A stretch of DNA of 64,000 nucleotides from Candidatus Bipolaricaulis sp. GTDB taxonomy: Bacteria; Bipolaricaulota; Bipolaricaulia; UBA7950; UBA9294. Shown here piece after piece: positions 6,715 to 27,777 of this stretch. The translations under genes were made by a program, and so were the position numbers. Where the stretch lies: assembly GCA_028713635.1 (NCBI GenBank), contig JAQTNX010000001.1, forward strand, positions 2,281 through 66,280, in the 5' to 3' direction. Numbering within the stretch: position 1 is the first letter of the stretch; each line of letters begins with the position of its first letter. The notes beneath the pieces were generated by a model. The model saw only the letters and a program-made list of their open reading frames with translations. It made no database searches and was not told where the DNA came from.

Positions 6715-8406
6715 TCAGCTTCTGCCGCCGCCGTTGCGCTCAAGGGTTCTTCCGAGTGCCCAGAACGCGGCGGCGAGCAGGACGCACAGGCCGGCCGAAT
6801 ACCACACCCACCACGGGAAGCCGAACCATCCGAGGCGGTTGTCGCCCCACGCCCACACGTCTTGCGATGCCAGGAAGAACAGCGCGAGCACACCCGCCCA
6901 GCCCATCGAGGCCTTGCGGCTCAGCGGGTGCAGCAAGGGTGCGTGGCGGCCTTCACGGCGCTTCGTGAGGAAGCTACCGACGACAAGAACGAGGGCCGTC
7001 CCGACGACGACGGGGACGACGGGGAGCGTGCCGAACGTGGGAAGCGCCTTCAGGTGGTAGGCAACGACGAGTCCCTCTCCCACGACGATCGATGCGATCG
7101 CTGCGCCCGGTGTCATCCGAGGCCAATAGATGGCGGCAATCACCGTCGGGAAGAGGACGGCAAGGCCGGTGAACGCCTCGGTCGTGATCTCGAGGAACGT
7201 GGCCGGCGGCCGGTATGCCAGAGCGAGTCCGGCGAGGCCCAGGACGACCACGAACGCGCGGCCCACCCACTCCGACGGCGCGGCGATCTCCGCGCGGCTC
7301 CGCGCGATGCGTGCCCGCAGGGGGGCATAGACGTCGCGCGTGAACATCGATGACAGGGTCAAGAGCTGCGAGTCGAGGGTGGTGATGAGCGCGGCGAGGC
7401 CCGCGGAGAGCACGAGGGTCTCGACGAGCGGCGACGCGTGTTTGTGCAGCAGAAGCGGCAGGATCTGGTCGGATGCGGTTCCGCTGGGAAGCCGCGGGTA
7501 CGACAGCCTCCCCATCACGCCGATGGCGACCGGAAGCAGGAACAGGAATCCGGTCACGAGGGGGTACAGAGCCATCGTCGTGGAGAGCGCGCGGGGATTC
7601 TTTGCGGCGTAGAAACGCTGAAAGAGCTGCGGGAACATCGGATCGCAGAGAAACCAGAGGATCATGTACCCGAACCAGATCCCCGGAGTGAACGTGCCGT
7701 CCAGGCCCGGACGCGAGAAGAGAGCAGGGAAGTCGGCGGCCGCCGTTCGGTTCGCCGCGGCCATCCCTCCGAACGGCGCCGCGACGGCCAGAAGACCGAG
7801 CGTCATGAAGACGATCATCATGGCACCCTGGAAGACGTCGGTCCACACCTCACCGCGGAACCCGCCAAGCAGCACGTAGGCGAGGATGATAATCGTGACG
7901 AGGACCGCCCCGACGTAGTAGGGAATCCCGAACAGCGACGCGAGAGCGTACCCGGCGGCCATCGGCTGGATGGCGAGGTACGGGAGGGTGAACGCGGCCA
8001 TGACGAGGAAGAAGACAAGCCGCAGCCTTGGGCTCGCCGTCCGCTGAAAAACCAGTTCCGGCGGGGTGATCAGCCCGTGCTCCTTGCCCAGCCGCCAAAC
8101 GGGGTGGCCGATCAGGACGAACGAGAGGGCCATGAACCCCGTTCCGAACGCCATGATGGGATAGAACGCGTACCCGATTCTCCATCCGGCGCCGGAGAAC
8201 CCAAAGACCGTGAACGCGCTGAAGTTGGTTGCGGCCATGGTCAGGAAGAGAACCCAGCCCGGCAGCGTTCGCGAGGCGAGGAAGTAGTCGTCGGGCGTCT
8301 TGCGCCGCTTCGCGCGAGCGAGAAGCCCGATGCCAAGGAGAGCCCCCAAGTACGCTCCCACGACTGCGAGCCGAATCGCCATGTCCCCTCCAAAGAGAAA
8401 CGCCAT
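6715..8406 (-). CDS. Sodium:solute symporter family transporter
   Basis: 563 aa, about 13 TM segments, SSF-like organisation. Confidence 0.8.
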   Translation of the reverse strand: MAFLFGGDMAIRLAVVGAYLGALLGIGLLARAKRRKTPDDYFLASRTLPGWVLFLTMAATNFSAFTVFGFSGAGWRIGYAFYPIMAFGTGFMALSFVLIGHPVWRLGKEHGLITPPELVFQRTASPRLRLVFFLVMAAFTLPYLAIQPMAAGYALASLFGIPYYVGAVLVTIIILAYVLLGGFRGEVWTDVFQGAMMIVFMTLGLLAVAAPFGGMAAANRTAAADFPALFSRPGLDGTFTPGIWFGYMILWFLCDPMFPQLFQRFYAAKNPRALSTTMALYPLVTGFLFLLPVAIGVMGRLSYPRLPSGTASDQILPLLLHKHASPLVETLVLSAGLAALITTLDSQLLTLSSMFTRDVYAPLRARIARSRAEIAAPSEWVGRAFVVVLGLAGLALAYRPPATFLEITTEAFTGLAVLFPTVIAAIYWPRMTPGAAIASIVVGEGLVVAYHLKALPTFGTLPVVPVVVGTALVLVVGSFLTKRREGRHAPLLHPLSRKASMGWAGVLALFFLASQDVWAWGDNRLGWFGFPWWVWYSAGLCVLLAAAFWALGRTLERNGGGRS

Positions 8407-18911: not shown

Positions 18912-19277
18912 TCGAACGGCGGACCTACGGGACTACGTGATGGTTTCGCTCTTCTTGGATTGTGCCGCAGCGAGCGCGAGGGTGCGTTGAACCCCATCCT
19001 CGCGCTGCTAGGATCCTCGGCCCATGGGCCAATCGGCAACCGGCTGACGCCAGAGAACCCATGCCCGGACCTCACGTGACCTCGAACGCGACTTCTGCCG
19101 ATCCTGAGTCGCCTCTGAGCGTTGACTGCTCGGCAATGCGCCCGCCTCTTGGCGTTTATCGGGGTGAGTTAGGTGCCGTCGCGCAGGGCTGAACAAGATT
19201 GGAGTGGCAGCGGGGCGTACTACGGGAGCCGTGTTCGTGCTGGTCCGAGGGAGTACTCCGGTATCATCGTCAGGAAG

Positions 19278-19958
19278 ATGACGATCATCCGTGCAGAATA
19301 CTCAGGTGACCATCGTGACGTTGCCATTATCTCTGATCGTCACGGTCAGCCAAACGTGGCGGCTCTGCAGAACGCATTAGGGCCTAATGAAGGCCTCTAC
19401 AAGACGCTTCTCCTTGGGCCTGAGGTTGCCATTGGGATGGCAGGAGACGGTCGTCTGTGCAACCTCATTCTCGCAGAAGCGCTGGGCCTCCCGGAATCCC
19501 AGGAACCAAGCTTGATCTCCTCGCTGGTTTCCGGTGAGGACCGGCTGTTCTTGTCGTTTCCGGATGCCGCGCATGCGTTCGAGCAAGCAGCGTCAGTAGT
19601 AGTGGCCAGGAAGCGCCCGCCGCTTGCGGTAGACTCCACAGCAATACTTGTCGGGAGACTCAACGGCCGTCCTGTGATTGCCGAGTTGAGTCGGACTACC
19701 AAGTGGCGCTTTGTCCATGTAATGGAGCGGCCCGCGTACTGCATACCGGAAGGAATGACAGACAGTGATTTGCTGCTCTACAAGAGCTACGTTACGAGAC
19801 CCGGTCTTGACTACATTGCATCGCTGAAAGCAGCTGTCGAGTTCTGCGCAGACCGCTATGAGTCTGTCAATCATCGCTACGTGCTCCGGTGTTTGAAGGA
19901 TGGATTCCGGCGCGAGGAGGGCGAGGTCCCACAGGGTGCTTCGTTGCCTAGCAGCTAG
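19278..19958 (+). CDS. Hypothetical protein, low-GC island cargo
   Basis: Codon and GC usage shifts at the ATG at 19278. No recognisable motifs. 3' end overlaps the transposase stop by 11 bp. Confidence 0.4.
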   Translation: MTIIRAEYSGDHRDVAIISDRHGQPNVAALQNALGPNEGLYKTLLLGPEVAIGMAGDGRLCNLILAEALGLPESQEPSLISSLVSGEDRLFLSFPDAAHAFEQAASVVVARKRPPLAVDSTAILVGRLNGRPVIAELSRTTKWRFVHVMERPAYCIPEGMTDSDLLLYKSYVTRPGLDYIASLKAAVEFCADRYESVNHRYVLRCLKDGFRREEGEVPQGASLPSS

Positions 19959-20877
19959 CCAGCACGAGATCCATCATCTGCCCCTTCTCTCTTCGATGCG
20001 AGTACCGGAACGAGAATTCGTCAAGGTAGGACTGCAAGAGCTTCGCGCTGACGTGATGGAACTGACCTACGAGCCCGCGCTTCAGTAGCGACCAAGCATT
20101 CTCAACGTAATTGGTATGGGCTTCCCCGTTTGTCCACTGTCGAGCATGGGTGACAGGCATACTGCTTCCGAGCATCCACATGCGGTTGAAGGAACGAGCG
20201 GCGTCTGTGTAGATGCGCCGCACCGTTCCGAAGTTCTTCTGACAGACGCGGACAATCTCCATGGTGTCGAGCGTCTGTAGGATCTGCATCTGCAAGGCTC
20301 CACTGTCACGCGACACCATACCTAGGACATTCGTGCTTGGGGCAATGCGCCCACCATGCGTGGATTGCCCGCCGTCCGTCTTGATGACGCCGATGTCGGC
20401 CTCAACGATGCCACACAGCTTGTTCTCGAAGATGTCGTGCTTCATGGCCTTGCGAATGCGCTTGGCGAGATACCAAGCGGTCTCGTAGCAGACTCCTAGC
20501 TCACGCTCGATCTGCTTGGCCGAGATCCCTTTCGGGCTGTGGCACATGAGCCATATCGCGACGAACCAGCGGGGCAAGTCAATCTTCGAGCGGTGGAAGA
20601 TGGTGCCACTTGTAACGCTGAAATGATGCTTGCAAGCGGCGCACTCCCAGAGACGCTGGTTCTTGAGCCAGTAGACGTGCTTCTCGCCGCACTTCGGGCA
20701 CGTCACCCCATCCGGCCAACGCATCGCAACAAGGTGCTTCTCGCACTTGACTCGCGTCGAGAACTCCCGCCGTGCTTGTTCCAAGGATTTGATCTCGCTC
20801 GTATCCATGATAACCTCCAATGGAACGAGCATAGCACGATTGGTGCCCTAAGGCAAGCCGATAAACACCCGCCTCTT
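19930..20877 (-). mobile_element. IS1595-family insertion sequence, copy 1 (boundaries approximate)
   Basis: Transposase CDS plus flanks conserved with copy 2. The upstream (higher-coordinate) end reads ...gccgataaacacccgcctcttg in both copies. Confidence 0.65.
19948..20808 (-). CDS. IS1595-family transposase (N-terminal Zn-ribbon + DDE domain)
   Basis: CPKCGEKHVYWLKNQRLWECAACKHHF zinc ribbon; DDE core. About 93% aa identity to the second copy. Confidence 0.85.
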   Translation of the reverse strand: MDTSEIKSLEQARREFSTRVKCEKHLVAMRWPDGVTCPKCGEKHVYWLKNQRLWECAACKHHFSVTSGTIFHRSKIDLPRWFVAIWLMCHSPKGISAKQIERELGVCYETAWYLAKRIRKAMKHDIFENKLCGIVEADIGVIKTDGGQSTHGGRIAPSTNVLGMVSRDSGALQMQILQTLDTMEIVRVCQKNFGTVRRIYTDAARSFNRMWMLGSSMPVTHARQWTNGEAHTNYVENAWSLLKRGLVGQFHHVSAKLLQSYLDEFSFRYSHRREKGQMMDLVLASC

Positions 20878-21031
20878 GGCGTTTATCGGGATGGCTTAGG
20901 AGGGGAGGATGAGGGGCGATTTCGTTGAGAGCATTGGTCTAATGGTGGCGCTGGCGCGCCGTGGCGAGCTAGAGTGCCACTCAGATTACGCCGGGATTCA
21001 CATCATTCTGTGTGGCGAGGAAGCCGGAGTG

Positions 21032-21412
21032 CTATCCCTCAGTGATAGGCCCGACGTGAAACGCCAACTCGATGGGACCAGGATATCCGTCTTGCTTGGC
21101 GACAGCCGAGAGAAGTTTGGCTGACACTTCTCCACGGACGTATGTGGCTCTCTTGCTTACGAGAATCGCGCTCTTGAAAACGCTTGATGGCTGTTCGATC
21201 CCATCAGCCAACTCGATGTTGATGATCGAGCCAAGGTCGAGCGCTCTAAGGCCGGAGCAGAGATCATCCTTGTGCGGGGAGTTCTCTACCGTGAGAACGA
21301 GCACTAATCCAGACACGTCTGTATCGAACTTGATCTCATCTCGCGACATAGATCCGCTACGTTCCCAGCCCTTAGCGGATACCGTGACTCCGACGGTTTC
21401 ATACAATGCCAT
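21032..21412 (-). CDS. Hypothetical protein (126 aa)
   Basis: ATG 21412 with gaggagg RBS. Balanced amino-acid composition. Confidence 0.5.
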   Translation of the reverse strand: MALYETVGVTVSAKGWERSGSMSRDEIKFDTDVSGLVLVLTVENSPHKDDLCSGLRALDLGSIINIELADGIEQPSSVFKSAILVSKRATYVRGEVSAKLLSAVAKQDGYPGPIELAFHVGPITEG

Positions 21413-21557
21413 CTCGTGCCTCCTCGATACTGAGGATAGCGGAGAAAGGATTCGAGAGGCAACAGGGAATTGGGAGTTCGGATGAGGAGGCTGCTCGACA
21501 TCGGAAGACTGCCGCTCTATACTTCGAAACTGTTCAAGGAGTTGCGAGGAGGCGGAC

Positions 21558-21836
21558 GTGGCAGAGGGCACAAGGACTCTCATCCAAGGCCCGGAAGGGA
21601 AGCTGCTCCAGGCGGAGGATCTAGGATTCAAGCAGGTATCCGAAGGCTGGAGCGTCTACGAAGTAGCGGACGGCACGACGCTTCGCGTCAAGGTCGTTGC
21701 ACAGAAGATATCGCGCGCATTAGACGAGACGGGAAGTCTCTATCACAAGGGCGACGGCGAGCCTCTCTACAACCTCCGGTACCAGGTAATGGTGTCTGCC
21801 GAGGTGCAGAAGGATCTGCTAAAGGCCCCCCAATGA
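21558..21836 (+). CDS. Hypothetical protein (92 aa)
   Basis: GTG 21558 six nt after gaggagg. Divergent from the 126-aa gene. Confidence 0.45.
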   Translation: MAEGTRTLIQGPEGKLLQAEDLGFKQVSEGWSVYEVADGTTLRVKVVAQKISRALDETGSLYHKGDGEPLYNLRYQVMVSAEVQKDLLKAPQ

Positions 21837-22174
21837 GCGGATGTGCGCTAACGATCAATGGGAATGCTCTTTCAGGCATCGGCTACGGGCATGTAACTAC
21901 GCGGAACGTAGCAGATGACGCCGACCGCCCAGAAGATCGTCACACCACCGACACATACCTGGCGTATTCTGGTTTGTCAGCAGTGGGAGACGAGGTGACA
22001 GTGGGAATGGAGACCAGAGCACGAAGCAAGGCAGCGACACTCTTCCTGCGTGTTGCTATGACGTTGCGCATCATGGCGCACATTGCAGTCTATGCGTTCC
22101 GTCACCCACTCACTGAGGGCGTTGTGGACCTAGAGACGGGTGAGGTCTACCCAAGAGCAAATGCCAAGGCATAA
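21833..22174 (+). CDS. Hypothetical protein (113 aa), translationally coupled
   Basis: ATGA overlap with the upstream stop at 21833-21836. Confidence 0.35.
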   Translation: MSGCALTINGNALSGIGYGHVTTRNVADDADRPEDRHTTDTYLAYSGLSAVGDEVTVGMETRARSKAATLFLRVAMTLRIMAHIAVYAFRHPLTEGVVDLETGEVYPRANAKA

Positions 22175-22382
22175 GCAGAACGTACTCCCAGTGCGATTCC
22201 TCGTTGCGCTTCTCGTCCTCGGCGGTTTGGTTGTGGCTTTTCTCGTTCCGTGGCTCATCCTAAACACGATGTGGGCTGACCCGACGCCATCGCAGAGTAG
22301 TTGCCTAACAACGCTGACTCACATGATGGTGTCTTCCGCTGGAGCTTTTGTCGGTCTGCTAACCAGCAAGGCTGTGCTCTAG
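22161..22382 (+). CDS. Small membrane protein (73 aa)
   Basis: Two hydrophobic helices (FLVALLVLGGLVVAFLVPWLIL; SSAGAFVGLL). Overlaps the previous stop. Confidence 0.3.
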   Translation: MPRHKQNVLPVRFLVALLVLGGLVVAFLVPWLILNTMWADPTPSQSSCLTTLTHMMVSSAGAFVGLLTSKAVL

Positions 22383-22394
22383 TCCATATCGAGC

Positions 22395-23337
22395 AGGCTA
22401 TGCACGACAGCTACGCAGTACCGCATCCATCAGTCTTCCCTTCTCCCTTCTGTGGGAGTATCGGAACGAAAACTCGTCAAGATAGGTCTGCAATAGCTTC
22501 GCGCTGACGTGGTGGAACTGTCCGAGGAGCCCGCGCTTGAATAGGCTCCATGCGTTTTCGACATAGTTCGTGTGCGCCTCTCCGTTCACCCAATGCCGTG
22601 CATGGGTAACGGGCATTTGATTCCCGACCATCCACAGTCGGTTGAACGACCGAGCGGCGTCCGTGTAGATCCGCCGCACCGTTCCGAAGTTCTTCTGGCA
22701 GACGCGGACGATTTCCATGGTGTCGAGCGTCTGTAGAATCTGCATCTGCAACGCCCCGCTGTCTCGCGACACCATACCCAGGACGTTCGTGCTTGGGGCA
22801 ATGCGCCCACCGTGCGTGGACTGCCCACCGTCCGTCTTGATGACGCCGATGTCGGCCTCCACGATCCCGCACAGTTTGTTCTCGAAGATGTCGTGCTTCA
22901 TGGCCCTGCGGATGCGCTTGGCGAGATACCAAGCTGTCTCGTAGCAGACGCCTAGCTCGCGCTCGATCTGCTTGGCCGAGATCCCCTTCGGACTGTGGCA
23001 CATAAGCCATATGGCGACGAACCAGCGGGGCAGGTCGATCTTGGAACGATGGAAGATCGTGCCGGAAGTGACGGAGAAATGGTGCTTGCAGGAAGCGCAC
23101 TCCCAGAGACGCTGATTCTTGAGCCAGTAGTTGTGTGTCGCCCCGCACTTCGGGCACGTCACTCCGTCCGGCCAGCGCATGGCGACAAGGTGCTTCTCGC
23201 ACTTGACTCGTGTCGAGAACTCCCGCCGTGCTTGCTCCAAGGATTTGATCTCGCTCGTGTCCATGATAACCTCCAATGGAACAAGCATAGCACGATCCGT
23301 GGCCTAAGTCAAGCCGATAAACGCCCGCCTCTTGACA
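22395..23337 (-). mobile_element. IS1595-family insertion sequence, copy 2 (boundaries approximate)
   Basis: About 85-90% nucleotide identity to copy 1 including flanks. Ends at ...cccgcctcttg(aca). Confidence 0.65.
22398..23264 (-). CDS. IS1595-family transposase, second copy
   Basis: Same Zn-ribbon/DDE organisation (CPKCGATHNYW...CASCKHHF). Confidence 0.85.
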   Translation of the reverse strand: MDTSEIKSLEQARREFSTRVKCEKHLVAMRWPDGVTCPKCGATHNYWLKNQRLWECASCKHHFSVTSGTIFHRSKIDLPRWFVAIWLMCHSPKGISAKQIERELGVCYETAWYLAKRIRRAMKHDIFENKLCGIVEADIGVIKTDGGQSTHGGRIAPSTNVLGMVSRDSGALQMQILQTLDTMEIVRVCQKNFGTVRRIYTDAARSFNRLWMVGNQMPVTHARHWVNGEAHTNYVENAWSLFKRGLLGQFHHVSAKLLQTYLDEFSFRYSHRREKGRLMDAVLRSCRA

Positions 23338-23359
23338 GCAGCCAGTGTTGTAGTATACT
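23332..23359 (+). promoter_or_regulatory. Candidate sigma70-type promoter TTGACA-16 nt-TATACT for the GntR operon; -35 overlaps the IS end and the mRNA would be leaderless
   Basis: ttgaca at 23332-23337, tatact at 23354-23359, GntR ATG at 23368 with no SD. Confidence 0.4.
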
Positions 23360-23367
23360 AATACACT

Positions 23368-23745
23368 ATGACCATCGAGTGCACCTGGCCGATCGATATG
23401 AACGCGGGTCCGATCTTCGTTCAAATCGCGAACCAAGTTCGTCAGAAGTTGGCGCGCGGGGAGATCGTTCCAGGGGACAGGCTCCCGAGCGCCCGCGACC
23501 TGGCCGCGGGGCTCGGCGTGAATCCGAACACGGTCGTGCACGCGTTCGCCGAACTGGAAAGGACAAGCGTGATCGAAACAAGACGAGGACTGGGGACCTT
23601 CGTTCGTGAGGACGCCCCGGTGGCGGCGATGCGCCGCGACATGCTCCTTGCAGCGGCGGCGGCGTTCGCGGCCGACGCTGCGGCGCTCGGCGTGTCAACG
23701 TCCGAGGCGCTTGCTGCTCTGAAGGAGGCACTGCATGCTGGCTAG
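23368..23745 (+). CDS. GntR-family transcriptional regulator (short, YhcF-like)
   Basis: HTH segment LPSARDLAAGLGVNPNTVVHAFAELE. Confidence 0.8.
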   Translation: MTIECTWPIDMNAGPIFVQIANQVRQKLARGEIVPGDRLPSARDLAAGLGVNPNTVVHAFAELERTSVIETRRGLGTFVREDAPVAAMRRDMLLAAAAAFAADAAALGVSTSEALAALKEALHAG

Positions 23746-24415
23746 TCTCAATCGTGCGACCAAGCAGTACGGCCGGACGGAGGGGGTGCGCGACCTTACG
23801 GTGGAGTTCCCTCCGGGGGAGGTAGTCGGCGTGCTCGGGCTGAACGGCTCGGGGAAGTCGACGATGCTCAAGCTCCTCGCCGGCCTCCTGTTCCCGACCT
23901 CGGGGGACGTGGCGGTCTTCGACGGACCGGCCCGCGCCCAACGTTCCCACGTCGTGTACCTCGGCGAGACCGACGCCTTGTGGAGTTGGATGACCCCTGA
24001 CGACGCGGCGACGTTCATGGCGGGGCTCTACGACGACTTCGACGTGAAACGCTTCCGTGAGCTGCTCGCGAGTCTCGCGGTCCCGCGGCGGCGGACGAAG
24101 GCGATGTCCAAAGGGGAACGTGGCCGACTGCGTCTCGCCATGGCGCTTGCTCGTGACGCGAAGCTCTACTTGCTCGACGAGCCGCTTGGCGGGATCGACC
24201 TCTTGTCGCGGGAGAAGATCTTGCAGTCGATCGTTCAGGAGTGGCACACCGACGAGACGGTTCTGCTCTCGACCCACGAGGTTGCGGAGGCAGAGGGATT
24301 GTTTGAGCGGGTCATCTACCTGCGCGAAGGGCGCATTGCCCTCGACGCGACGGCGGAGCGGCTGCGGGAGCGGGGGAAGAGCGTTGTGCAGACGTACCGG
24401 GAGGTGCTTGGATGA
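23735..24415 (+). CDS. ABC transporter ATP-binding protein
   Basis: Walker A GLNGSGKST, signature and Walker B LLDEP. Confidence 0.85.
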   Translation: MLASLNRATKQYGRTEGVRDLTVEFPPGEVVGVLGLNGSGKSTMLKLLAGLLFPTSGDVAVFDGPARAQRSHVVYLGETDALWSWMTPDDAATFMAGLYDDFDVKRFRELLASLAVPRRRTKAMSKGERGRLRLAMALARDAKLYLLDEPLGGIDLLSREKILQSIVQEWHTDETVLLSTHEVAEAEGLFERVIYLREGRIALDATAERLRERGKSVVQTYREVLG

Positions 24416-25185
24416 AGGGGCTCAAGGCTCTCCTCTGGCTCGAGTTCCGGCGTAGCGGGGTCTGGGCGGCGACTCTGGTCGGCTCGCTCGCGTTCTGGGC
24501 GTGGGGTCTCTTCCAGGTTCGCCTCGTCGAGACGGCCGAACAGCTTGAGGTCCGCGCCATCCTTCTGGTGCTGGCGGCGGCCATCGGAGCGGTCGTCCTC
24601 GCGCTGATGATTGGACGGATCCGTTCGGAAACCCGCGGCGGGCAATTCCAGGTGCTGCTCTTGACGCCTCCCTCCGGCTACGTCCACATCGCGGCCCGCT
24701 ACGGGTTTGCTGTGGCGACGGCCGCCGTCTACTACGTGATCCTCGGCGGGCTGGCGTGGTGGACGATCGCGATGGCGGGAATCGCGCTCGACGCAGGGAG
24801 CATCGCTCAGTTGACCCTTGCCGTGCCGTTCTACGGCCTGGGAGTCACGGTCATGCCGCTCCTCGCGTGGACCCTTCTGCTCATGGTCTTTATCGCCGCG
24901 TACCGCGTCTCGGGGCCCGGATGGATTCCCGGAACGGTGATGGTCCTCGGGACGCCGTTCGCGTTGCGTTGGCTGATTGAGGGGATCGCGCGCGTCTCGT
25001 TCCGGCTTCCGGGTTGGCACCTGTTCGGCGGGTTGGAGGGCGCGATGCGCCGGGCGGCGGAGCAGTCCGACGGGGAGTTCGCTCCGATCGCGATGCTGCC
25101 CCAGGAACCTTTGTGGATCATGCTTGCCGTCACGGTCGTCCTCTTGGCGATCGCCGGCCGGATCTGGCAGGAGGTGGAGGGATGA
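24412..25185 (+). CDS. ABC-2-type membrane permease
   Basis: Six TM segments, coupled (ATGA) to the ATPase gene. Confidence 0.6.
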   Translation: MKGLKALLWLEFRRSGVWAATLVGSLAFWAWGLFQVRLVETAEQLEVRAILLVLAAAIGAVVLALMIGRIRSETRGGQFQVLLLTPPSGYVHIAARYGFAVATAAVYYVILGGLAWWTIAMAGIALDAGSIAQLTLAVPFYGLGVTVMPLLAWTLLLMVFIAAYRVSGPGWIPGTVMVLGTPFALRWLIEGIARVSFRLPGWHLFGGLEGAMRRAAEQSDGEFAPIAMLPQEPLWIMLAVTVVLLAIAGRIWQEVEG

Positions 25186-25343
25186 CCCAAGCGTTTCTGA
25201 TCGTCGTACGAGCCCTCCTCGTGGGATTGGTCGGGTTCTGGGCGTATCGGCTCTGGACGGGAACGAGGAGCTGGACGACCCGTTTCGTGGGCGCGTTCTT
25301 CTCTGCGACGCTCCTGTGGCAGATCGTGGCGGGTACACTGTGA
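25182..25343 (+). CDS. Small membrane protein (53 aa)
   Basis: ATGA overlap with upstream stop; RBS caggaggtggagg; two TM segments. Confidence 0.4.
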   Translation: MTQAFLIVVRALLVGLVGFWAYRLWTGTRSWTTRFVGAFFSATLLWQIVAGTL

Positions 25344-25371
25344 CGGACTGCACGAATCGAGCGAGGGGCGA

Positions 25372-26109
25372 ATGAACGAGTCGTGGGGAGCTCTTTGGAT
25401 TCCGTGGACCCTCTTCCTTGCCGGCGCGATCGCGATCACGTCCATGGGCGTCGCGAAGCTCTGGGCCCGCCGGCACGAGCGAGCGACGAACTCGCTCGTC
25501 ACCCACGGGCTGATGGCGATCCTGTCGGTTGCCGCCATCGCCGGTCTCTCCCAGGGGCGGTTCGAAGCGTTCGGCTTCACGGTCGGGACGTTCCGATGGA
25601 GCTTCCTCTTGCTCCTTTGGACGATCCCGTCGGCGGTGCTGACACTGCCACGGCTCGCGGGACGGGGCGGGGGACCTCCGGCGACGCCGTTCGGGCTCTC
25701 TCCGGCGCAGACCGTCGTCCGCGTCTGGGTGGTCGCGAGCATCGCGGAGGAGATCCTCACGCGCGGGCTGATTCAGAGCTCCCTGGGAGTTCTGTCGGAC
25801 GTCGGGTTCTCGGTCGGAGCGCACTTCCTCAGCCTTCCGGTGCTGACCGGCGCGCTCGCGTTCTCGGCGATGCACCTCGTTCTCTTGAAGCGGATCGGGG
25901 CGAAGGCCGCACCGGTTCTCGTCGTCGCGTTCCTTCTCGGATGCATCGCAGGCGTCTATCGCGAGACGACGGGGAGCCTGATCCCCGCCGTGCTCGTACA
26001 CATGCTGTTCAACGTCGGCGGCGCCGTCCCGCTCTGGGTGGCGGGTGCCGTCCGGGCGCGCCGCGCAACGCGGGCGCCCCGGGCCGGGGACCGTGGGGAG
26101 GGTGGATGA
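25372..26109 (+). CDS. CPBP-family intramembrane metalloprotease (CAAX protease/bacteriocin-processing type)
   Basis: Motifs EEILTRG, FSAMH, HMLFN. Confidence 0.75.
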   Translation: MNESWGALWIPWTLFLAGAIAITSMGVAKLWARRHERATNSLVTHGLMAILSVAAIAGLSQGRFEAFGFTVGTFRWSFLLLLWTIPSAVLTLPRLAGRGGGPPATPFGLSPAQTVVRVWVVASIAEEILTRGLIQSSLGVLSDVGFSVGAHFLSLPVLTGALAFSAMHLVLLKRIGAKAAPVLVVAFLLGCIAGVYRETTGSLIPAVLVHMLFNVGGAVPLWVAGAVRARRATRAPRAGDRGEGG

Positions 26110-27026
26110 TGACTCGAAGACTTCTCGGAAGAGCGATCGCGCTCGGCGCCTTCGCGTTGGTTCTGGCAGGAGCGGCGGGGTGCGACGTCGATGACCTCTT
26201 CGGGCCCCGCATTGAGAGCACGGCTGTCCGGACGGTGTCGTTCGCGGCCAGTCCCAACCTGATCGTGGATGCCGGGAGCGCCAACGGGGCGATCGCCGTC
26301 CGCCGGGTGGAAGGGCAGACGGCCGTTCAAGTCCAGATGACGCTTCGGTCGCGCGGGACGACGCTCGAGGACGCCAACGCTCGCCTCGCGAGAATCGTCG
26401 CCCGCGCCGAGCAGGAGGGCGATCGCATCGTTCTTCGCTACGTCGCCGCCGAGCAGGACGACGACGTTCGCCGATCGAGCGGCGTGGCGTTCGACGTGAC
26501 GCTCCCGGAAGCCGCCGGGGTGCAGGCGGTGACTTCGAATGGAGCGATCCGCGTTGCCGGAGTTCGCGGCGACCTCGACCTTGCTACGTCCAACGGAGAG
26601 GTCGTTGTCGAGCAGTACGCCGGCGACGTGAAGGCCCGAACCTCGAACGGGCAGATTCTCATCGACCGAGGAGAGGGCGCGCTCCTTCTCGAAACCTCGA
26701 ACGGGCAGATCCAGATCGCCCATGTCGCAGCCCGCGTGGACGCCGAGACGTCGAACGGGGAGATCACGTTCTCCGGGCGGCTCTTCGATGGAGCGCACCG
26801 CCTCGTGACAAGCAACGGCCACATCGGCGTTCGCGTTCCGGACACGGCGGCGATTCGGGTCGTAGCACAGACCCACAACGCCAGCATCTCGTCGAGTCTA
26901 CCGCTGGTGGGAGATACGGAAGGTCGCAGTTGGGATGCGGTTCTCAACGCCCCGGCGGCGGCCACGCTCACCGTGGAGACATCGAACGGTGCGATCGACT
27001 TCGGGATCCTATCGAAGGTAGAGTGA
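26106..27026 (+). CDS. DUF4097 (LiaG/YvlB-like) beta-propeller lipoprotein
   Basis: ATGATGA overlap. Lipoprotein signal LAGAAGC. Repeated TSNGxI blocks. Confidence 0.7.
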   Translation: MMTRRLLGRAIALGAFALVLAGAAGCDVDDLFGPRIESTAVRTVSFAASPNLIVDAGSANGAIAVRRVEGQTAVQVQMTLRSRGTTLEDANARLARIVARAEQEGDRIVLRYVAAEQDDDVRRSSGVAFDVTLPEAAGVQAVTSNGAIRVAGVRGDLDLATSNGEVVVEQYAGDVKARTSNGQILIDRGEGALLLETSNGQIQIAHVAARVDAETSNGEITFSGRLFDGAHRLVTSNGHIGVRVPDTAAIRVVAQTHNASISSSLPLVGDTEGRSWDAVLNAPAAATLTVETSNGAIDFGILSKVE

Positions 27027-27195
27027 ATCTGTGGGGCAGCGTGATCCCCATCACCGACACGAGCGAACGTCCGGTGCACAATGAGGGGCTGGTAAGCCTC
27101 TACATCTCTGGTGCGGCTGCGGGGTTCTGGCCTGCGGCCGCCTTCTTCTGGGAGCCTTGCCTGGGATGGCCTCTCTCCGCTATGGGTGAGAACAC

Positions 27196-27777
27196 GTGAC
27201 GTTGCAGCGTGATCACCTTCCTCCGACGCCCGGCGCGCGCATCAACGTCGTCGGCACATGTGGATCAGGCAAGACGACCGTCGCGAAGAGCCTCGCGGGG
27301 CTTCTTGGCTTTCCTCACGTGGAGTTGGACGCGCTCTTCTGGCGCTCCGGCTGGGGAGAGGCAACAGACCCTGAGCTGCGAGCAGCTGTGGGTGAAGCCG
27401 CGACGGGCGACGCGTGGGTGATCGATGGGAACTACAGCCGGGTTCGCGACCTCATCTGGCCCCGCGCCGACACCATTGTCTGGCTTGACTACTCGTTCCT
27501 GCGCGTCTTCTCCCGGCTCCTCGCGAGGACGATCCGGCGGGCCGTTCTCCGCGAGCCGCTCTGGCACGGGAATCGCGAGAGCCTTCGGACGTCCTTCCTG
27601 TCACGGGAGTCCATTCTCCTTTGGGCCGTGAAAACCCATTGGCGGCGCCGACGGCAGTACCGGGCCCTGCTTGCGGACCCGACCAGCCCGCACCCGAAGG
27701 TCATCCGATTGCGCTCTCCCCGGGAGGCGGAGCGATGGCTTCGGCGCATCGCGGCGTCCGACCTTCCTCTTCCATAG
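27196..27777 (+). CDS. P-loop NTPase, adenylate-kinase-like/topology-modulation-type AAA kinase
   Basis: Walker A VVGTCGSGKTT; GTG start with ggtgag RBS. Confidence 0.6.
   Translation: MTLQRDHLPPTPGARINVVGTCGSGKTTVAKSLAGLLGFPHVELDALFWRSGWGEATDPELRAAVGEAATGDAWVIDGNYSRVRDLIWPRADTIVWLDYSFLRVFSRLLARTIRRAVLREPLWHGNRESLRTSFLSRESILLWAVKTHWRRRRQYRALLADPTSPHPKVIRLRSPREAERWLRRIAASDLPLP

What the first reader, a model, noticed from the sequence alone, without database searches (positions are those of the whole stretch)
23368..27026. Six-gene GntR-ABC ATPase-ABC2 permease-small TM-CPBP protease-DUF4097 envelope module
All six genes are translationally coupled (overlaps at 23735-23745, 24412-24415, 25182-25185 and 26106-26109). 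The short GntR regulator with ABC-2 exporter resembles Bacillus yhcFGH-type modules. The CPBP intramembrane metalloprotease has intact EExxxR/FxxxH/HxxxN motifs, and a lipoprotein carries DUF4097 (LiaG/YvlB-like). Together they suggest a peptide/bacteriocin immunity or cell-envelope stress module of undefined function. The operon lies immediately downstream of the IS-flanked island and may be part of the same acquired region.
Basis: partly seen in the sequence, partly recalled or inferred. Interest (0 to 1): 0.55.

Follow-up and report, generated by a model that had tools for sequence, protein, structure and literature searches.

The report
Self-repressed ABC transporter–Toastrack envelope operon
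This is a conserved chromosomal operon of Bipolaricaulota bacteria that encodes its own repressor, a small ABC transporter and a surface-anchored beta-helix lipoprotein, probably for cell-envelope upkeep; it is a lineage-specific version of a gene neighbourhood already described but functionally unsolved, and its protease gene is a recent add-on.

Summary
The six genes exist at the stated coordinates. Four of the five junctions overlap; the small-TM/CPBP junction is a 28-nt gap. The organism is a Candidatus Bipolaricaulota bacterium.

Across 39 informative related loci, the conserved unit has five genes, not six:
- a YtrA-type GntR repressor
- an ABC ATPase
- a 6-TM permease with no Pfam family
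- a 53-aa two-TM protein
- one to three Toastrack (DUF4097) lipoproteins.

The CPBP protease is found only in the three closest relatives; its next homologues are stand-alone genes elsewhere.

The operon has a near-consensus promoter. Its -10 box lies at the centre of a 24-bp palindrome that abuts the ATG. That arrangement is conserved in 27 of 31 loci, which argues strongly for autorepression and a leaderless first gene.

The operon is not part of the IS island. Two tandem IS1595-family elements, each with inverted repeats and 8-bp target duplications, end 6 nt before the -35 box, and a relative shows the empty site.

GntR→ABC→permease→Toastrack neighbourhoods were already described by Ravi et al. 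(2024). This is therefore a new variant of a known, uncharacterised kind. Envelope homeostasis is the best-supported role; bacteriocin immunity is weakly supported. Interest is moderate to low.

The parts
23303..23325 (.). Right terminal inverted repeat of the second IS1595-family element (CCTAAGTCAAGCCGATAAACGCC). It marks where the acquired DNA ends.
   Evidence: Inverted-repeat pairs I2/I3 with 19151-19173 and 20878-20900; sequence read.
23326..23333 (.). 8-bp target-site duplication CGCCTCTT, also present at 19143-19150 and 20870-20877. Its last two bases are the TT of the -35 box.
   Evidence: The empty site ...GCGCCTCTTGACAGCAGCC is seen in L038.
23332..23359 (+). Sigma-70-type promoter TTGACA-16 nt-TATACT (11 of 12 consensus matches).
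   Evidence: 0.4 such sites expected in shuffles. The TTGAC -35 sits at the same spacing in 26 of 31 loci.
23344..23367 (+). 24-bp palindromic operator AGTGTTGTAGTATACTAATACACT (10 of 12 pairs). It is centred on the -10 box and abuts the g1 ATG, and is the predicted binding site of the g1 repressor.
   Evidence: Unique in the window, 0 expected. The family consensus AGTGTAyTAGTATACTAGTACACT is conserved in 27 of 31 loci while flanking DNA is not. Its length matches the 24-bp YtrA motif reported in PMC6746942.
23368..23745 (+). g1: YtrA-subfamily GntR repressor, 125 aa, probably translated from a leaderless mRNA.
   Evidence: PF00392 E 2e-15. Best NCBIfam hits are Rv1152-family and PmtR, both below cut-off. 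PDB relatives are short YtrA-type proteins 3neu, 4r1h, 6sbs and 2du9. The ATG lies 8 nt after the -10 box with no Shine-Dalgarno.
23735..24415 (+). g2: ABC ATPase, 226 aa, nucleotide-binding domain only, DrrA/ABCA-like class.
   Evidence: PF00005. NCBIfam DrrA subfamily and PmtA-like, below cut-off. Nearest PDB nucleotide-binding domains are ABCA1/A7/A4/A3, Rv1218c and 1VPL. Walker A GLNGSGKST, Walker B LYLLDEP and H-loop STHEV were read from the translation.
24412..25185 (+). g3: 6-TM permease, 257 aa, of a small lineage-restricted family with an ABC-2/type V-like fold.
   Evidence: No Pfam or NCBIfam hit. AF2 pLDDT 80, six long helices. Best PDB fold matches are CcmB, NosY, ABCG1 and PmtCD, with weak E-values. 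Only 45 clusters match among 1.84 billion representatives.
25182..25343 (+). g4: 53-aa two-TM protein with motif YRLWTGTxSWTxR, predicted accessory subunit of the transporter.
   Evidence: Present directly after the permease, overlapping or abutting its stop, in every related locus at 59-96% identity and 53-55 aa. A likely homologous N-terminus is fused to an extracytoplasmic domain in Allomeiothermus silvanus.
25372..26109 (+). g5: CPBP (Rce1-like) intramembrane glutamic protease, 245 aa, a lineage-specific insertion into the operon.
   Evidence: PF02517. Catalytic motifs are invariant. Present in only 3 of 39 informative loci. The next homologues are stand-alone genes.
26106..27026 (+). g6: Toastrack (DUF4097) beta-helix lipoprotein, 306 aa, extracytoplasmic.
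   Evidence: PF13349. Lipobox Cys26 is invariant. AF2 pLDDT 92.5. Foldseek matches the DUF4097/DUF2807 'putative adhesin' structures 4qrk, 3pet and 3ljy. A same-strand Toastrack gene follows g4 in 37 of 39 loci.
27113..27141 (+). Terminator-like G+C-rich hairpin (11 pairs) with a weak T tract, the probable 3' end of the operon.
   Evidence: The next gene starts at 27196.

Best explanation
This is an ancestral chromosomal operon of Bipolaricaulota that encodes a self-repressed ABC transporter complex working with surface lipoproteins, most likely in cell-envelope homeostasis or stress adaptation.

How it most likely works:
1. A dimer of the YtrA-type repressor g1 binds the 24-bp palindrome that covers the -10 box and the transcription start. 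This keeps the operon off. The binding is inferred from phylogenetic footprinting and family knowledge.
2. An unknown envelope-derived signal relieves repression. The transcript starts at or next to the g1 ATG, so g1 is leaderless. Overlapping stop/start codons then give roughly stoichiometric g1-g4.
3. g2 (two nucleotide-binding domains), g3 (two 6-TM ABC-2-like permeases) and the two-TM g4 form the membrane complex.
4. The lipid-anchored Toastrack beta-helix protein g6 acts on the outer face of the membrane. It is either a partner or client of the transporter, or a binding surface for the stressor.
5. In this sub-lineage a catalytically intact CPBP intramembrane protease has been recruited between g4 and g6 as an accessory.

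Shown here: gene content, conservation, promoter/operator architecture, folds, lipoprotein signals, and the boundaries of the IS elements. Inferred: repression, the inducing signal, the physical complex, the substrate, and the role of the CPBP.
For: Conservation. The order g1-g2-g3-g4-Toastrack recurs in 37 of 39 informative loci, with permease identity down to about 50%.

Operator and promoter.
- They are conserved in 27 of 31 loci while the surrounding DNA is not.
- The site is unique in the 64-kb window.
- A 24-bp operator with distant half-sites is the known YtrA signature, and X. citri YtrA binds GGTG-N16-CACC (PMC6746942).
- The same operator type sits next to distant GntR+ABC pairs, and in front of RND pumps, in contigs of 30-75% G+C.

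Transporter.
- The ATPase falls in the ABCA/DrrA class.
- The permease model has six TM helices, and its best fold matches are CcmB, NosY, ABCG1 and PmtCD.
- g4 is always present and coupled to the permease.
- In A. silvanus the g4-like hairpin carries its own extracytoplasmic domain.

Envelope link.
- Toastrack lipoproteins are present in one to three copies.
- Other lineages place a PF00144 beta-lactamase-family lipoprotein, with or without an S41 peptidase domain, directly behind the same operator.
- This lineage adds a CPBP.

Family precedents.
- B. subtilis ytrGABCDEF has a YtrA repressor, an ABC transporter and a small TM protein. It is induced by lipid II-cycle inhibitors and stimulates wall synthesis (PMC12772383).
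- S. aureus PmtR is released from its operator by the exported peptides (PMC5080381).
- Ravi et al. 2024 describe GNTR-HTH→ABC→TM(s)→Toastrack operons.
Against: - There are no expression, binding or phenotype data for any member, and all relatives but Allomeiothermus silvanus and the other named Thermaceae are uncultured.
- The permease fold matches are weak (Foldseek E 0.012-1, TM 0.45-0.50). Sequence-profile links to ABC-2 families are not significant.
- No ligand is known for any YtrA-type regulator other than PmtR, so the inducing signal is a guess.
- Two loci (L026, L035) lack a same-strand Toastrack gene, and A. silvanus has none. The lipoprotein is therefore not obligatory for the transporter.
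- The terminator is weak, so read-through into the syntenic kinase-like gene at 27196 cannot be excluded.
Confidence: 0.55

Rival explanations
1. Mechanotransmission machine. The ABC-2-like transporter moves no solute across the membrane. It uses ATP hydrolysis, relayed through g3 and the two-TM g4, to load, unload or reshape the extracytoplasmic Toastrack beta-helix lipoprotein. This would resemble NosFY acting on the periplasmic beta-helix NosD and the lipoprotein NosL, or CcmAB with the small subunit CcmD.
For: - The top PDB fold matches of the permease are CcmB of CcmABCD and NosY of NosDFY(L).
- Both of those systems have small or beta-helical extracytoplasmic partners (established knowledge).
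- Toastrack follows g4 in 37 of 39 loci.
- The predicted g4 topology, with a positively charged loop inside, puts its C-terminus outside. In A. silvanus that end carries a Cys-containing domain of about 110 aa.
- PMC7828314 reviews non-transport roles of ABC systems.
Against: - The fold matches are weak, and PmtCD/ABCG-type true exporters match about as well.
- Toastrack copy number varies from 0 to 3, which suits a loosely associated partner better than an obligate subunit.
- No interface prediction could be run.
Confidence: 0.17
2. Peptide or bacteriocin immunity module. The ABC exporter expels an antimicrobial peptide from the membrane, and the CPBP acts as an Abi-type immunity protein.
For: - CPBP/Abi proteins serve as bacteriocin immunity factors in Firmicutes (established knowledge).
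- g1 and g2 score second-best against PmtR and PmtA of the phenol-soluble-modulin exporter.
- NCBIfam holds a fused 'ABC permease/CPBP' family, NF041647, which g5 hits weakly.
Against: - The CPBP is in only 3 of 39 loci and was recruited recently.
- No homologue of the CPBP gene lies in the up-to-8-kb flanks of the other related loci. Flanks were not screened for bacteriocin-precursor, modification-enzyme or peptidase-domain exporter genes, and none was noticed in the ORFs read.
- The module is vertically conserved with its neighbours rather than mobile.
- The PmtR and PmtA scores are far below the family cut-offs (56 vs 200 bits; 111 vs 350 bits).
- PADLOC gives nothing specific.
Confidence: 0.13
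3. Generic drug or hydrophobic-compound efflux pump (DrrAB-like). The Toastrack, CPBP and other neighbours are functionally unrelated genes that merely share a transcript.
For: - The ATPase's best NCBIfam match is the daunorubicin-resistance DrrA subfamily.
- Its nearest bacterial PDB relative is the Rv1218c multidrug efflux ATPase.
- The same operator type precedes RND efflux pumps in other organisms.
Against: - Linkage of Toastrack lipoproteins to g4 persists down to about 50% permease identity. The recurrent recruitment of other extracytoplasmic envelope enzymes behind the same operator is also hard to explain by chance.
- The DrrA score is well below cut-off (127 vs 312 bits).
Confidence: 0.12
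4. The operon is cargo of the IS-flanked island and was acquired horizontally with it.
For: It lies directly next to two IS1595-family elements, and G+C drops to 0.56-0.59 upstream.
Against: - The IS inverted repeats and three copies of the 8-bp duplication CGCCTCTT delimit the insertions at 19151-23325.
- L038 shows the uninterrupted site.
- Operon G+C is 0.63-0.68, like the rest of the window.
- The same operon, with the same downstream kinase-like and solute-binding-protein genes, occurs in many genomes without an IS.
Confidence: 0.02

Closest known systems
[quoted passage not shown] 2024 (mSystems, PMC11237479; type example Xanthomonas citri XAC1545; a Bacillus cereus variant lacks the GntR)
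   Same: Same gene order and domain content: a short GntR with a C-terminal helical extension, an ABC ATPase, a permease, and a membrane-tethered Toastrack protein. The function is likewise unknown. The authors also infer coupling of Toastrack to transcription, membrane-proximal sensing and transport.
   Different: - Here Toastrack is anchored by a lipobox rather than a TM helix, so it lies outside the membrane.
- There is no DUF2884 protein.
- There is an extra, universally conserved 53-aa two-TM protein.
- The permease belongs to a tiny family seen only in Bipolaricaulota and Thermaceae, with unnamed metagenomic relatives. It is therefore not detectably homologous to the proteobacterial permeases.
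- One sub-lineage adds a CPBP.
Bacillus subtilis ytrGABCDEF (YtrA regulon)
   Same: A YtrA-subfamily autorepressor encoded as an early gene of an ABC-transporter operon that also encodes a small TM protein (YtrG). That operon is linked to lipid II-cycle and cell-wall homeostasis (PMC12772383). Both use long palindromic operators.
   Different: ytr has two ATPases, YtrC/D membrane proteins and the FtsX-like YtrF with a large extracellular domain. It has no Toastrack, no CPBP and no leaderless arrangement. No homology between g3/g4 and the Ytr membrane proteins was tested or seen.
Staphylococcus aureus PmtR-PmtABCD phenol-soluble-modulin exporter
   Same: A short GntR repressor followed by an ABC-2-type exporter. 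g1 hits the PmtR model and g2 the PmtA model. PmtCD is among the permease's fold matches. It offers a concrete induction mechanism, in which the substrate binds the repressor (PMC5080381).
   Different: Scores are far below the equivalog cut-offs. Pmt has two ATPases and two permeases, and it has no small subunit, no Toastrack and no CPBP.
NosDFY(L) and CcmABCD non-canonical ABC-2 systems
   Same: They are the best structural matches of the permease. Both pair an ABC-2 core with accessory partners: the periplasmic beta-helix NosD plus lipoprotein NosL, and the small membrane protein CcmD.
   Different: There is no sequence similarity. Toastrack is a different beta-helical fold from NosD. No nos or ccm genes are nearby. 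The resemblance is an analogy only.
Lia/PSP-associated Toastrack proteins (LiaG, YvlB, LiaX)
   Same: The same DUF4097 domain. LiaX is a surface-exposed sensor of antimicrobial peptides, which is a precedent for an extracytoplasmic Toastrack.
   Different: LiaG and LiaX model scores are 32 and 29 bits against cut-offs of 285 and 350. There is no LiaFSR, LiaIH, PspA or PspC in the operon.
Bacillus subtilis yhcFGHI-type modules
   Same: A short GntR followed by ABC ATPase and permease genes. This is from general knowledge and was not tested here.
   Different: yhc has two ATPase genes and a Pfam-recognisable ABC-2 permease. It has no Toastrack or CPBP.

Membership tests
YtrA subfamily of GntR regulators (g1) | N-terminal GntR winged helix-turn-helix | tested here: met
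   PF00392 E 2e-15, 56.6 bits against a cut-off of 27.
YtrA subfamily of GntR regulators (g1) | Very short C-terminal domain (about 50 aa, two helices; total about 120-130 aa) | tested here: met
   g1 is 125 aa. It aligns over residues 13-120 with the 125-128-aa YtrA-type structures 3neu and 4r1h, and also with 6sbs and 2du9.
YtrA subfamily of GntR regulators (g1) | Long (about 24 bp) palindromic operator with distant half-sites, overlapping its own promoter | tested here: met
   A 24-bp palindrome at 23344-23367, conserved in 27 of 31 loci. The criterion is taken from PMC6746942. Actual binding was not tested.
YtrA subfamily of GntR regulators (g1) | Encoded with ABC-transporter or membrane-protein genes | tested here: met
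   g1 overlaps g2 by 11 nt. The same pairing occurs in all related loci and in A. silvanus.
ABC-2 / type V ABC exporter (g2-g3) | Nucleotide-binding domain with Walker A, signature, Walker B and H-loop, of the DrrA/ABCA class | tested here: met
   PF00005. Best NCBIfam hit is DrrA. Best PDB hits are ABCA1/7/4/3 and Rv1218c. The motifs were read from the translation. The Q-loop appears to be YLGE rather than YLPQ; this was not followed up.
ABC-2 / type V ABC exporter (g2-g3) | Six-TM permease recognisable by ABC2_membrane-type profiles | tested here: not met
   No Pfam or NCBIfam hit. hhalign against an ABC2_membrane_2 protein gives E 0.074. The profile finds nothing relevant among PDB sequences.
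ABC-2 / type V ABC exporter (g2-g3) | Type V exporter fold | tested here: inconclusive
CPBP / Rce1-like intramembrane glutamic proteases (g5) | PF02517 domain with the EExxxR, FxxxH and HxxxN motifs | tested here: met
   52.6 bits against a cut-off of 22.4. E126, E127, R131, F164, H168, H210 and N214 are invariant.
Toastrack / DUF4097 (g6) | PF13349 domain and a single-stranded beta-helix 'toast-rack' fold | tested here: met
   43.3 bits against a cut-off of 22.9. AF2 pLDDT is 92.5. Foldseek probability is 1.00 to 4qrk, 3pet, 3ljy and 3lyc.
GNTR-HTH→ABC→TM(s)→Toastrack→DUF2884 neighbourhood (Ravi et al. 2024) | Gene order GntR, ABC ATPase, permease, membrane-anchored Toastrack | tested here: met
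   The anchor here is a lipid, not a TM helix.
GNTR-HTH→ABC→TM(s)→Toastrack→DUF2884 neighbourhood (Ravi et al. 2024) | DUF2884 lipoprotein at the end of the operon | tested here: not met
   No DUF2884 hit on any operon protein. The next gene is a P-loop kinase-like protein.
GNTR-HTH→ABC→TM(s)→Toastrack→DUF2884 neighbourhood (Ravi et al. 2024) | Orthology of the transporter proteins with the Xanthomonas or Bacillus examples | not testable with these tools
   Those sequences could not be fetched. Indirectly, the permease profile finds only 45 clusters, and those with names are Bipolaricaulota/Acetothermia or Thermaceae.
PmtR-PmtABCD | Equivalog-level match to PmtR and PmtA, with paired ATPases and permeases | tested here: not met
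   PmtR scores 55.7 bits against 200 and PmtA 110.8 against 350. There is only one ATPase and one permease gene.
Lia system (LiaG/LiaX with LiaFSR) | Equivalog-level match to LiaG or LiaX, and linkage to LiaFSR/LiaIH | tested here: not met
   LiaG scores 32.2 bits against 285 and LiaX 28.9 against 350. No two-component or PspA-like genes are present in the operon or in the syntenic loci.
Anti-phage defence systems (PADLOC) | A hit to a defence-specific model beyond generic ATPase similarity | tested here: not met
   Only g2 matched, and only ATPase-type models (mad3, mad8, AriA, PtuA, LmuB), which it shares with any P-loop/ABC ATPase; the other five genes gave nothing.

The most novel reading that the evidence does not exclude
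The g2-g3-g4 complex is not an exporter. It is an ATP-driven mechanotransducer whose two-TM subunit g4 docks the Toastrack lipoprotein(s), so that ATP hydrolysis in the cytoplasm loads, releases or reshapes a beta-helix protein on the cell surface. This would be a NosDFY/CcmABCD-like logic in a new protein family. It would give the widespread but biochemically orphan Toastrack domain its first defined molecular role. It would also explain why Thermaceae fuse an extracytoplasmic domain directly to the g4-like hairpin.
Probability: 0.15. Interest if true: 0.65.

Novelty: new variant of a known kind. Interest (0 to 1): 0.35.

Why it matters
Toastrack/DUF4097 proteins and YtrA-controlled ABC systems are widespread, are used as antibiotic-stress reporters, and have no agreed molecular function.

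This locus gives a compact, strongly conserved version:
- one ATPase
- one permease of a family with no Pfam model
- one obligatory 53-aa subunit
- an unambiguously extracytoplasmic Toastrack lipoprotein
- a sharply defined 24-bp operator on a leaderless promoter.

It also has a cultivable relative, Allomeiothermus silvanus, that carries the GntR-ABC-permease-hairpin core. That makes physical and functional coupling between an ABC-2-like transporter and a surface beta-helix protein directly testable.

For annotation, three points matter. The CPBP should not be treated as a core component. The 53-aa ORF is a real gene that annotators are likely to miss. The adjacent IS elements are insertions at a recurrent target abutting the -35 box, not evidence of horizontal acquisition of the operon.

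Tried and rejected
- PADLOC scan: only generic ATPase similarity, so not a defence system.
- Lia and Pmt membership: scores far below cut-offs.
- Sequence routes from the permease to known families all failed: Pfam and NCBIfam, its profile against PDB sequences, and hhalign against two ABC-2-like permeases of A. silvanus (E 0.45 and 0.074). The second alignment does line up GRIRSETRGGQYQVLLLTPP with STISGEIDSGTLQSILTKPI, which I treat only as a hint.
- The 2026 A. baumannii 'GntR-ABC efflux system' paper concerns a transporter operon that includes a substrate-binding-protein gene and a positively acting GntR, so it is not comparable.
- I could not confirm from the held papers that the characterised X. 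citri YtrA/HpaR1 is the regulator of the XAC1545 Toastrack operon.
- Search for extra operator sites (a regulon) in the window: none. Whole-genome regulon scans were not possible.
- The idea that the -35 box is supplied by the IS was rejected. The empty site in L038 already reads CTCTTGACAGC.
- A search for solved structures related by sequence to g6 or g5 gave nothing useful.

Full report
**1. What is in the sequence**

- g1, 23368-23745: a 125-aa GntR.
- g2, 23735-24415: an ABC ATPase.
- g3, 24412-25185: a 257-aa polytopic membrane protein.
- g4, 25182-25343: a 53-aa hydrophobic protein.
- g5, 25372-26109: a CPBP protease.
- g6, 26106-27026: a DUF4097 protein.

Pfam supports g1, g2, g5 and g6 above gathering thresholds. 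g3 and g4 match nothing in Pfam, NCBIfam or PADLOC.

The junctions are an 11-nt overlap, ATGA, ATGA, a 28-nt gap with a Shine-Dalgarno, and ATGA. Four of the five junctions are therefore overlapped, not all of them.

An 11-of-12 sigma-70 promoter lies at 23332-23359, and a G+C-rich hairpin at 27113-27141.

**2. Organism and conservation**

Homologues of the permease are labelled Candidatus Bipolaricaulota/Acetothermia. A 100%-identical copy of the CPBP is annotated Candidatus Bipolaricaulis sp..

A scan of one genome per GTDB species returned 39 loci. tblastn of the window proteins against them and against metagenome loci gave these results:
- The order GntR-ATPase-permease-53-aa protein is always kept.
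- A same-strand Toastrack gene follows within 1.2 kb in 37 of 39 informative loci, and eight loci carry two or three tandem copies.
- The CPBP gene is present in only the three closest relatives (L005-L007, permease identity at least 83%).

The next-best CPBP homologues (54-57% identity) are stand-alone genes in unrelated neighbourhoods. The conserved module therefore has five genes. The CPBP, although catalytically intact, is a recent recruit.

The slot around the core is plastic:
- a methyltransferase is inserted in L027
- a convergent DUF2807 gene occurs in L035
- L026 has no Toastrack
- in several lineages a PF00144 beta-lactamase-family lipoprotein, sometimes fused to an S41 peptidase, is placed directly behind the operator, ahead of the GntR gene.

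**3. Regulation**

The 24 bases before the g1 ATG, AGTGTTGTAGTATACTAATACACT, form a 10-of-12 palindrome whose centre is the -10 hexamer TATACT. It is unique in the window, with none expected by chance.

Alignment of the upstream regions shows the following:
- 27 of 31 loci have the palindrome abutting the ATG.
- The family consensus, AGTGTAyTAGTATACTAGTACACT, is an essentially perfect palindrome.
- 26 of 31 loci have a TTGAC -35 at fixed spacing.
- The DNA further upstream is unrelated between loci.

In the four exceptions, a match to the operator core lies further upstream of g1 in L028 and L030; L019 and L023 gave no match to that pattern. The closely similar locus L102 shows a PF00144 lipoprotein gene between the operator and g1.

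This is a phylogenetic footprint of an operator. It fits what is reported for YtrA-type regulators, namely 24-bp motifs with distant half-sites such as GGTG-N16-CACC in X. citri (PMC6746942).

g1 is a YtrA-subfamily protein by length and by its PDB relatives. Only 8 nt separate the -10 box from the ATG and there is no Shine-Dalgarno, so g1 is predicted to be leaderless. The N-terminal residues are conserved, so the first ATG is the real start.

A metagenome scan for the operator core found 74 contigs of 30-75% G+C. Many have distant GntR+ABC pairs next to the site, some have RND pumps, and one has a PF00144 gene. The operator type is therefore widespread and tied to efflux and envelope genes.

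**4. The transporter**

g2 has the canonical motifs. It groups with DrrA/ABCA-type nucleotide-binding domains.

The g3 model (pLDDT 80, pTM 0.80) has six long TM helices. Its best PDB matches are all ABC-2/type V systems (CcmB, NosY, ABCG1, PmtCD and TarG), but the statistics are weak.

A profile search of 1.84 billion representative proteins found only 45 clusters. Those with names are Acetothermia or Thermaceae: Allomeiothermus silvanus Mesil_0795, Calidithermus, Meiothermus and Oceanithermus.

In A. silvanus the arrangement is GntR, then ATPase (same 11-nt overlap), then permease, then a 159-aa protein. The N-terminal two-TM hairpin of that protein shares the LW-GT-S-T motif with g4 (12 bits, E 1.6e-5 in a single-target search). 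Its C-terminal part is a Cys-containing, presumably extracytoplasmic domain.

More distant relatives keep ATPase-permease, once with a 47-aa overlapping ORF, but have no GntR.

g4 is 53-55 aa in every Bipolaricaulota locus, at 59-96% identity, and always overlaps or abuts the permease stop. It is a real gene and very probably a subunit of the transporter.

**5. The Toastrack lipoprotein**

g6 has a signal peptide ending in a lipobox, and its Cys is invariant. The model is confident (pLDDT 92.5). It matches the JCSG DUF4097/DUF2807 'putative adhesin' structures. The domain is therefore on the outer face of the membrane.

**6. The IS 'island'**

Terminal inverted repeats (GGCGTTTATCGG...) define two tandem IS1595-family elements, at 19151-20869 and 20878-23325. 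Each is bordered by the 8-bp duplication CGCCTCTT, at 19143-50, 20870-77 and 23326-33. The last TT of the third copy is the start of the -35 box.

L038 shows the uninterrupted site. L006 has an IS of the same family at the same target.

G+C is 0.56-0.59 in the ISs and 0.63-0.68 in the operon and genome. The downstream kinase-like and solute-binding-protein genes are syntenic in many genomes.

The operon is ancestral. The ISs are later insertions that leave the promoter intact.

**7. Mechanism**

I commit to a self-repressed ABC-2-like transporter complex (g2, g3, g4) that acts together with surface Toastrack lipoproteins in envelope homeostasis or stress adaptation (confidence 0.55). Repression by g1 at the palindrome is the best-supported step.

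The envelope link rests on three lines:
- the extracytoplasmic partners recruited repeatedly, namely Toastrack, the PF00144 lipoprotein with or without S41, and the CPBP
- the B. subtilis ytr precedent, with its lipid II-cycle link
- the Pmt precedent for substrate-mediated derepression.

Substrate, signal and complex formation are inferred.

The main rival is a NosDFY/CcmABCD-like mechanotransmission role for the transporter towards the beta-helix lipoprotein (0.17). Peptide immunity (0.13) and plain drug efflux (0.12) remain possible. Acquisition with the IS island is refuted (0.02).

**8. Relation to what is known**

Ravi et al. 2024 already catalogued GNTR-HTH→ABC→TM(s)→TM+Toastrack→DUF2884 operons in Proteobacteria and Bacteroidetes, plus a Bacillus variant, without assigning a function.

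The present locus has the same logic but differs in five ways:
- a lipid anchor on Toastrack
- no DUF2884
- an obligatory 53-aa subunit
- a permease family without any profile
- a lineage-specific CPBP.

It is not a Lia or Pmt system by the curated cut-offs. I rate it a new variant of a known, uncharacterised kind, of moderate-to-low interest (0.35). The main value lies in correcting the module's composition and in offering a compact, testable model for Toastrack-ABC coupling.

Noticed in passing
window 19143-23333; L006 5240-6680: Two related IS1595-family elements (about 79% nt identity over 300 nt) sit in tandem in the same 8-bp target, CGCCTCTT, giving three copies of the duplication directly abutting the -35 box of the operon. 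L006 has a third, more divergent element (transposase 74% identical) at the same target. This suggests an insertion hotspot next to the promoter/operator.
   Followed up: partly
window 19173-19958 (+) and 20900-22400: Both IS elements carry passenger ORFs with no Pfam match: a 261-aa ORF in the first, and a roughly 1.5-kb low-G+C segment in the second that holds ORFs at 21032-21631 (-) and 21558-21836 (+).
   Followed up: partly
window 27196-27777 (+): A P-loop kinase-like gene (weak match to the 'DNA topology modulation protein' model, 85 vs 215 bits) follows the Toastrack gene on the same strand in many related loci. The gap is 110-220 nt and the terminator between is weak. It may be co-transcribed or functionally linked.
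   Followed up: no
window 23735-24415 (g2), residues about 64-69: The Q-loop of the ABC ATPase reads YLGE(T/R)D, where YLPQ is usual, and this is conserved in relatives. It may be a Q-to-E substitution at a residue that normally contacts Mg2+/gamma-phosphate and the coupling helix.
   Followed up: no
L102 2464-4241; L104 10778-14070 (-); L056 3896-5410: In some Bipolaricaulota lineages the same operator/promoter is followed first by a beta-lactamase-family (PF00144) lipoprotein, once fused to an S41 peptidase domain, before the GntR gene. L056 has a PF00144 gene alone behind the operator.
   Followed up: partly
L048 (Allomeiothermus silvanus CP002042.1, 777816-790577): The Thermaceae version of the core (GntR-ABC-permease-159-aa hairpin-plus-domain protein) sits immediately after two other ABC-2-type ATPase/permease pairs, with no intergenic promoter or palindrome. 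The result is a cluster of three exporters.
   Followed up: partly
L075 4828-4849; L109 1504-1525: The identical operator core GTGTnnTAGTATACTAnnACAC lies about 26 nt from the start of RND efflux operons (HlyD-type adaptor plus AcrB) in contigs of 63% G+C and unknown taxon. No GntR homologue of g1 was detected in the stretches of those contigs that were fetched.
   Followed up: partly
L030 6721-6960: In one relative the operator is followed by a 72-aa ORF (6742-6960) inserted between the promoter and the GntR gene. Its function is unknown.
   Followed up: no
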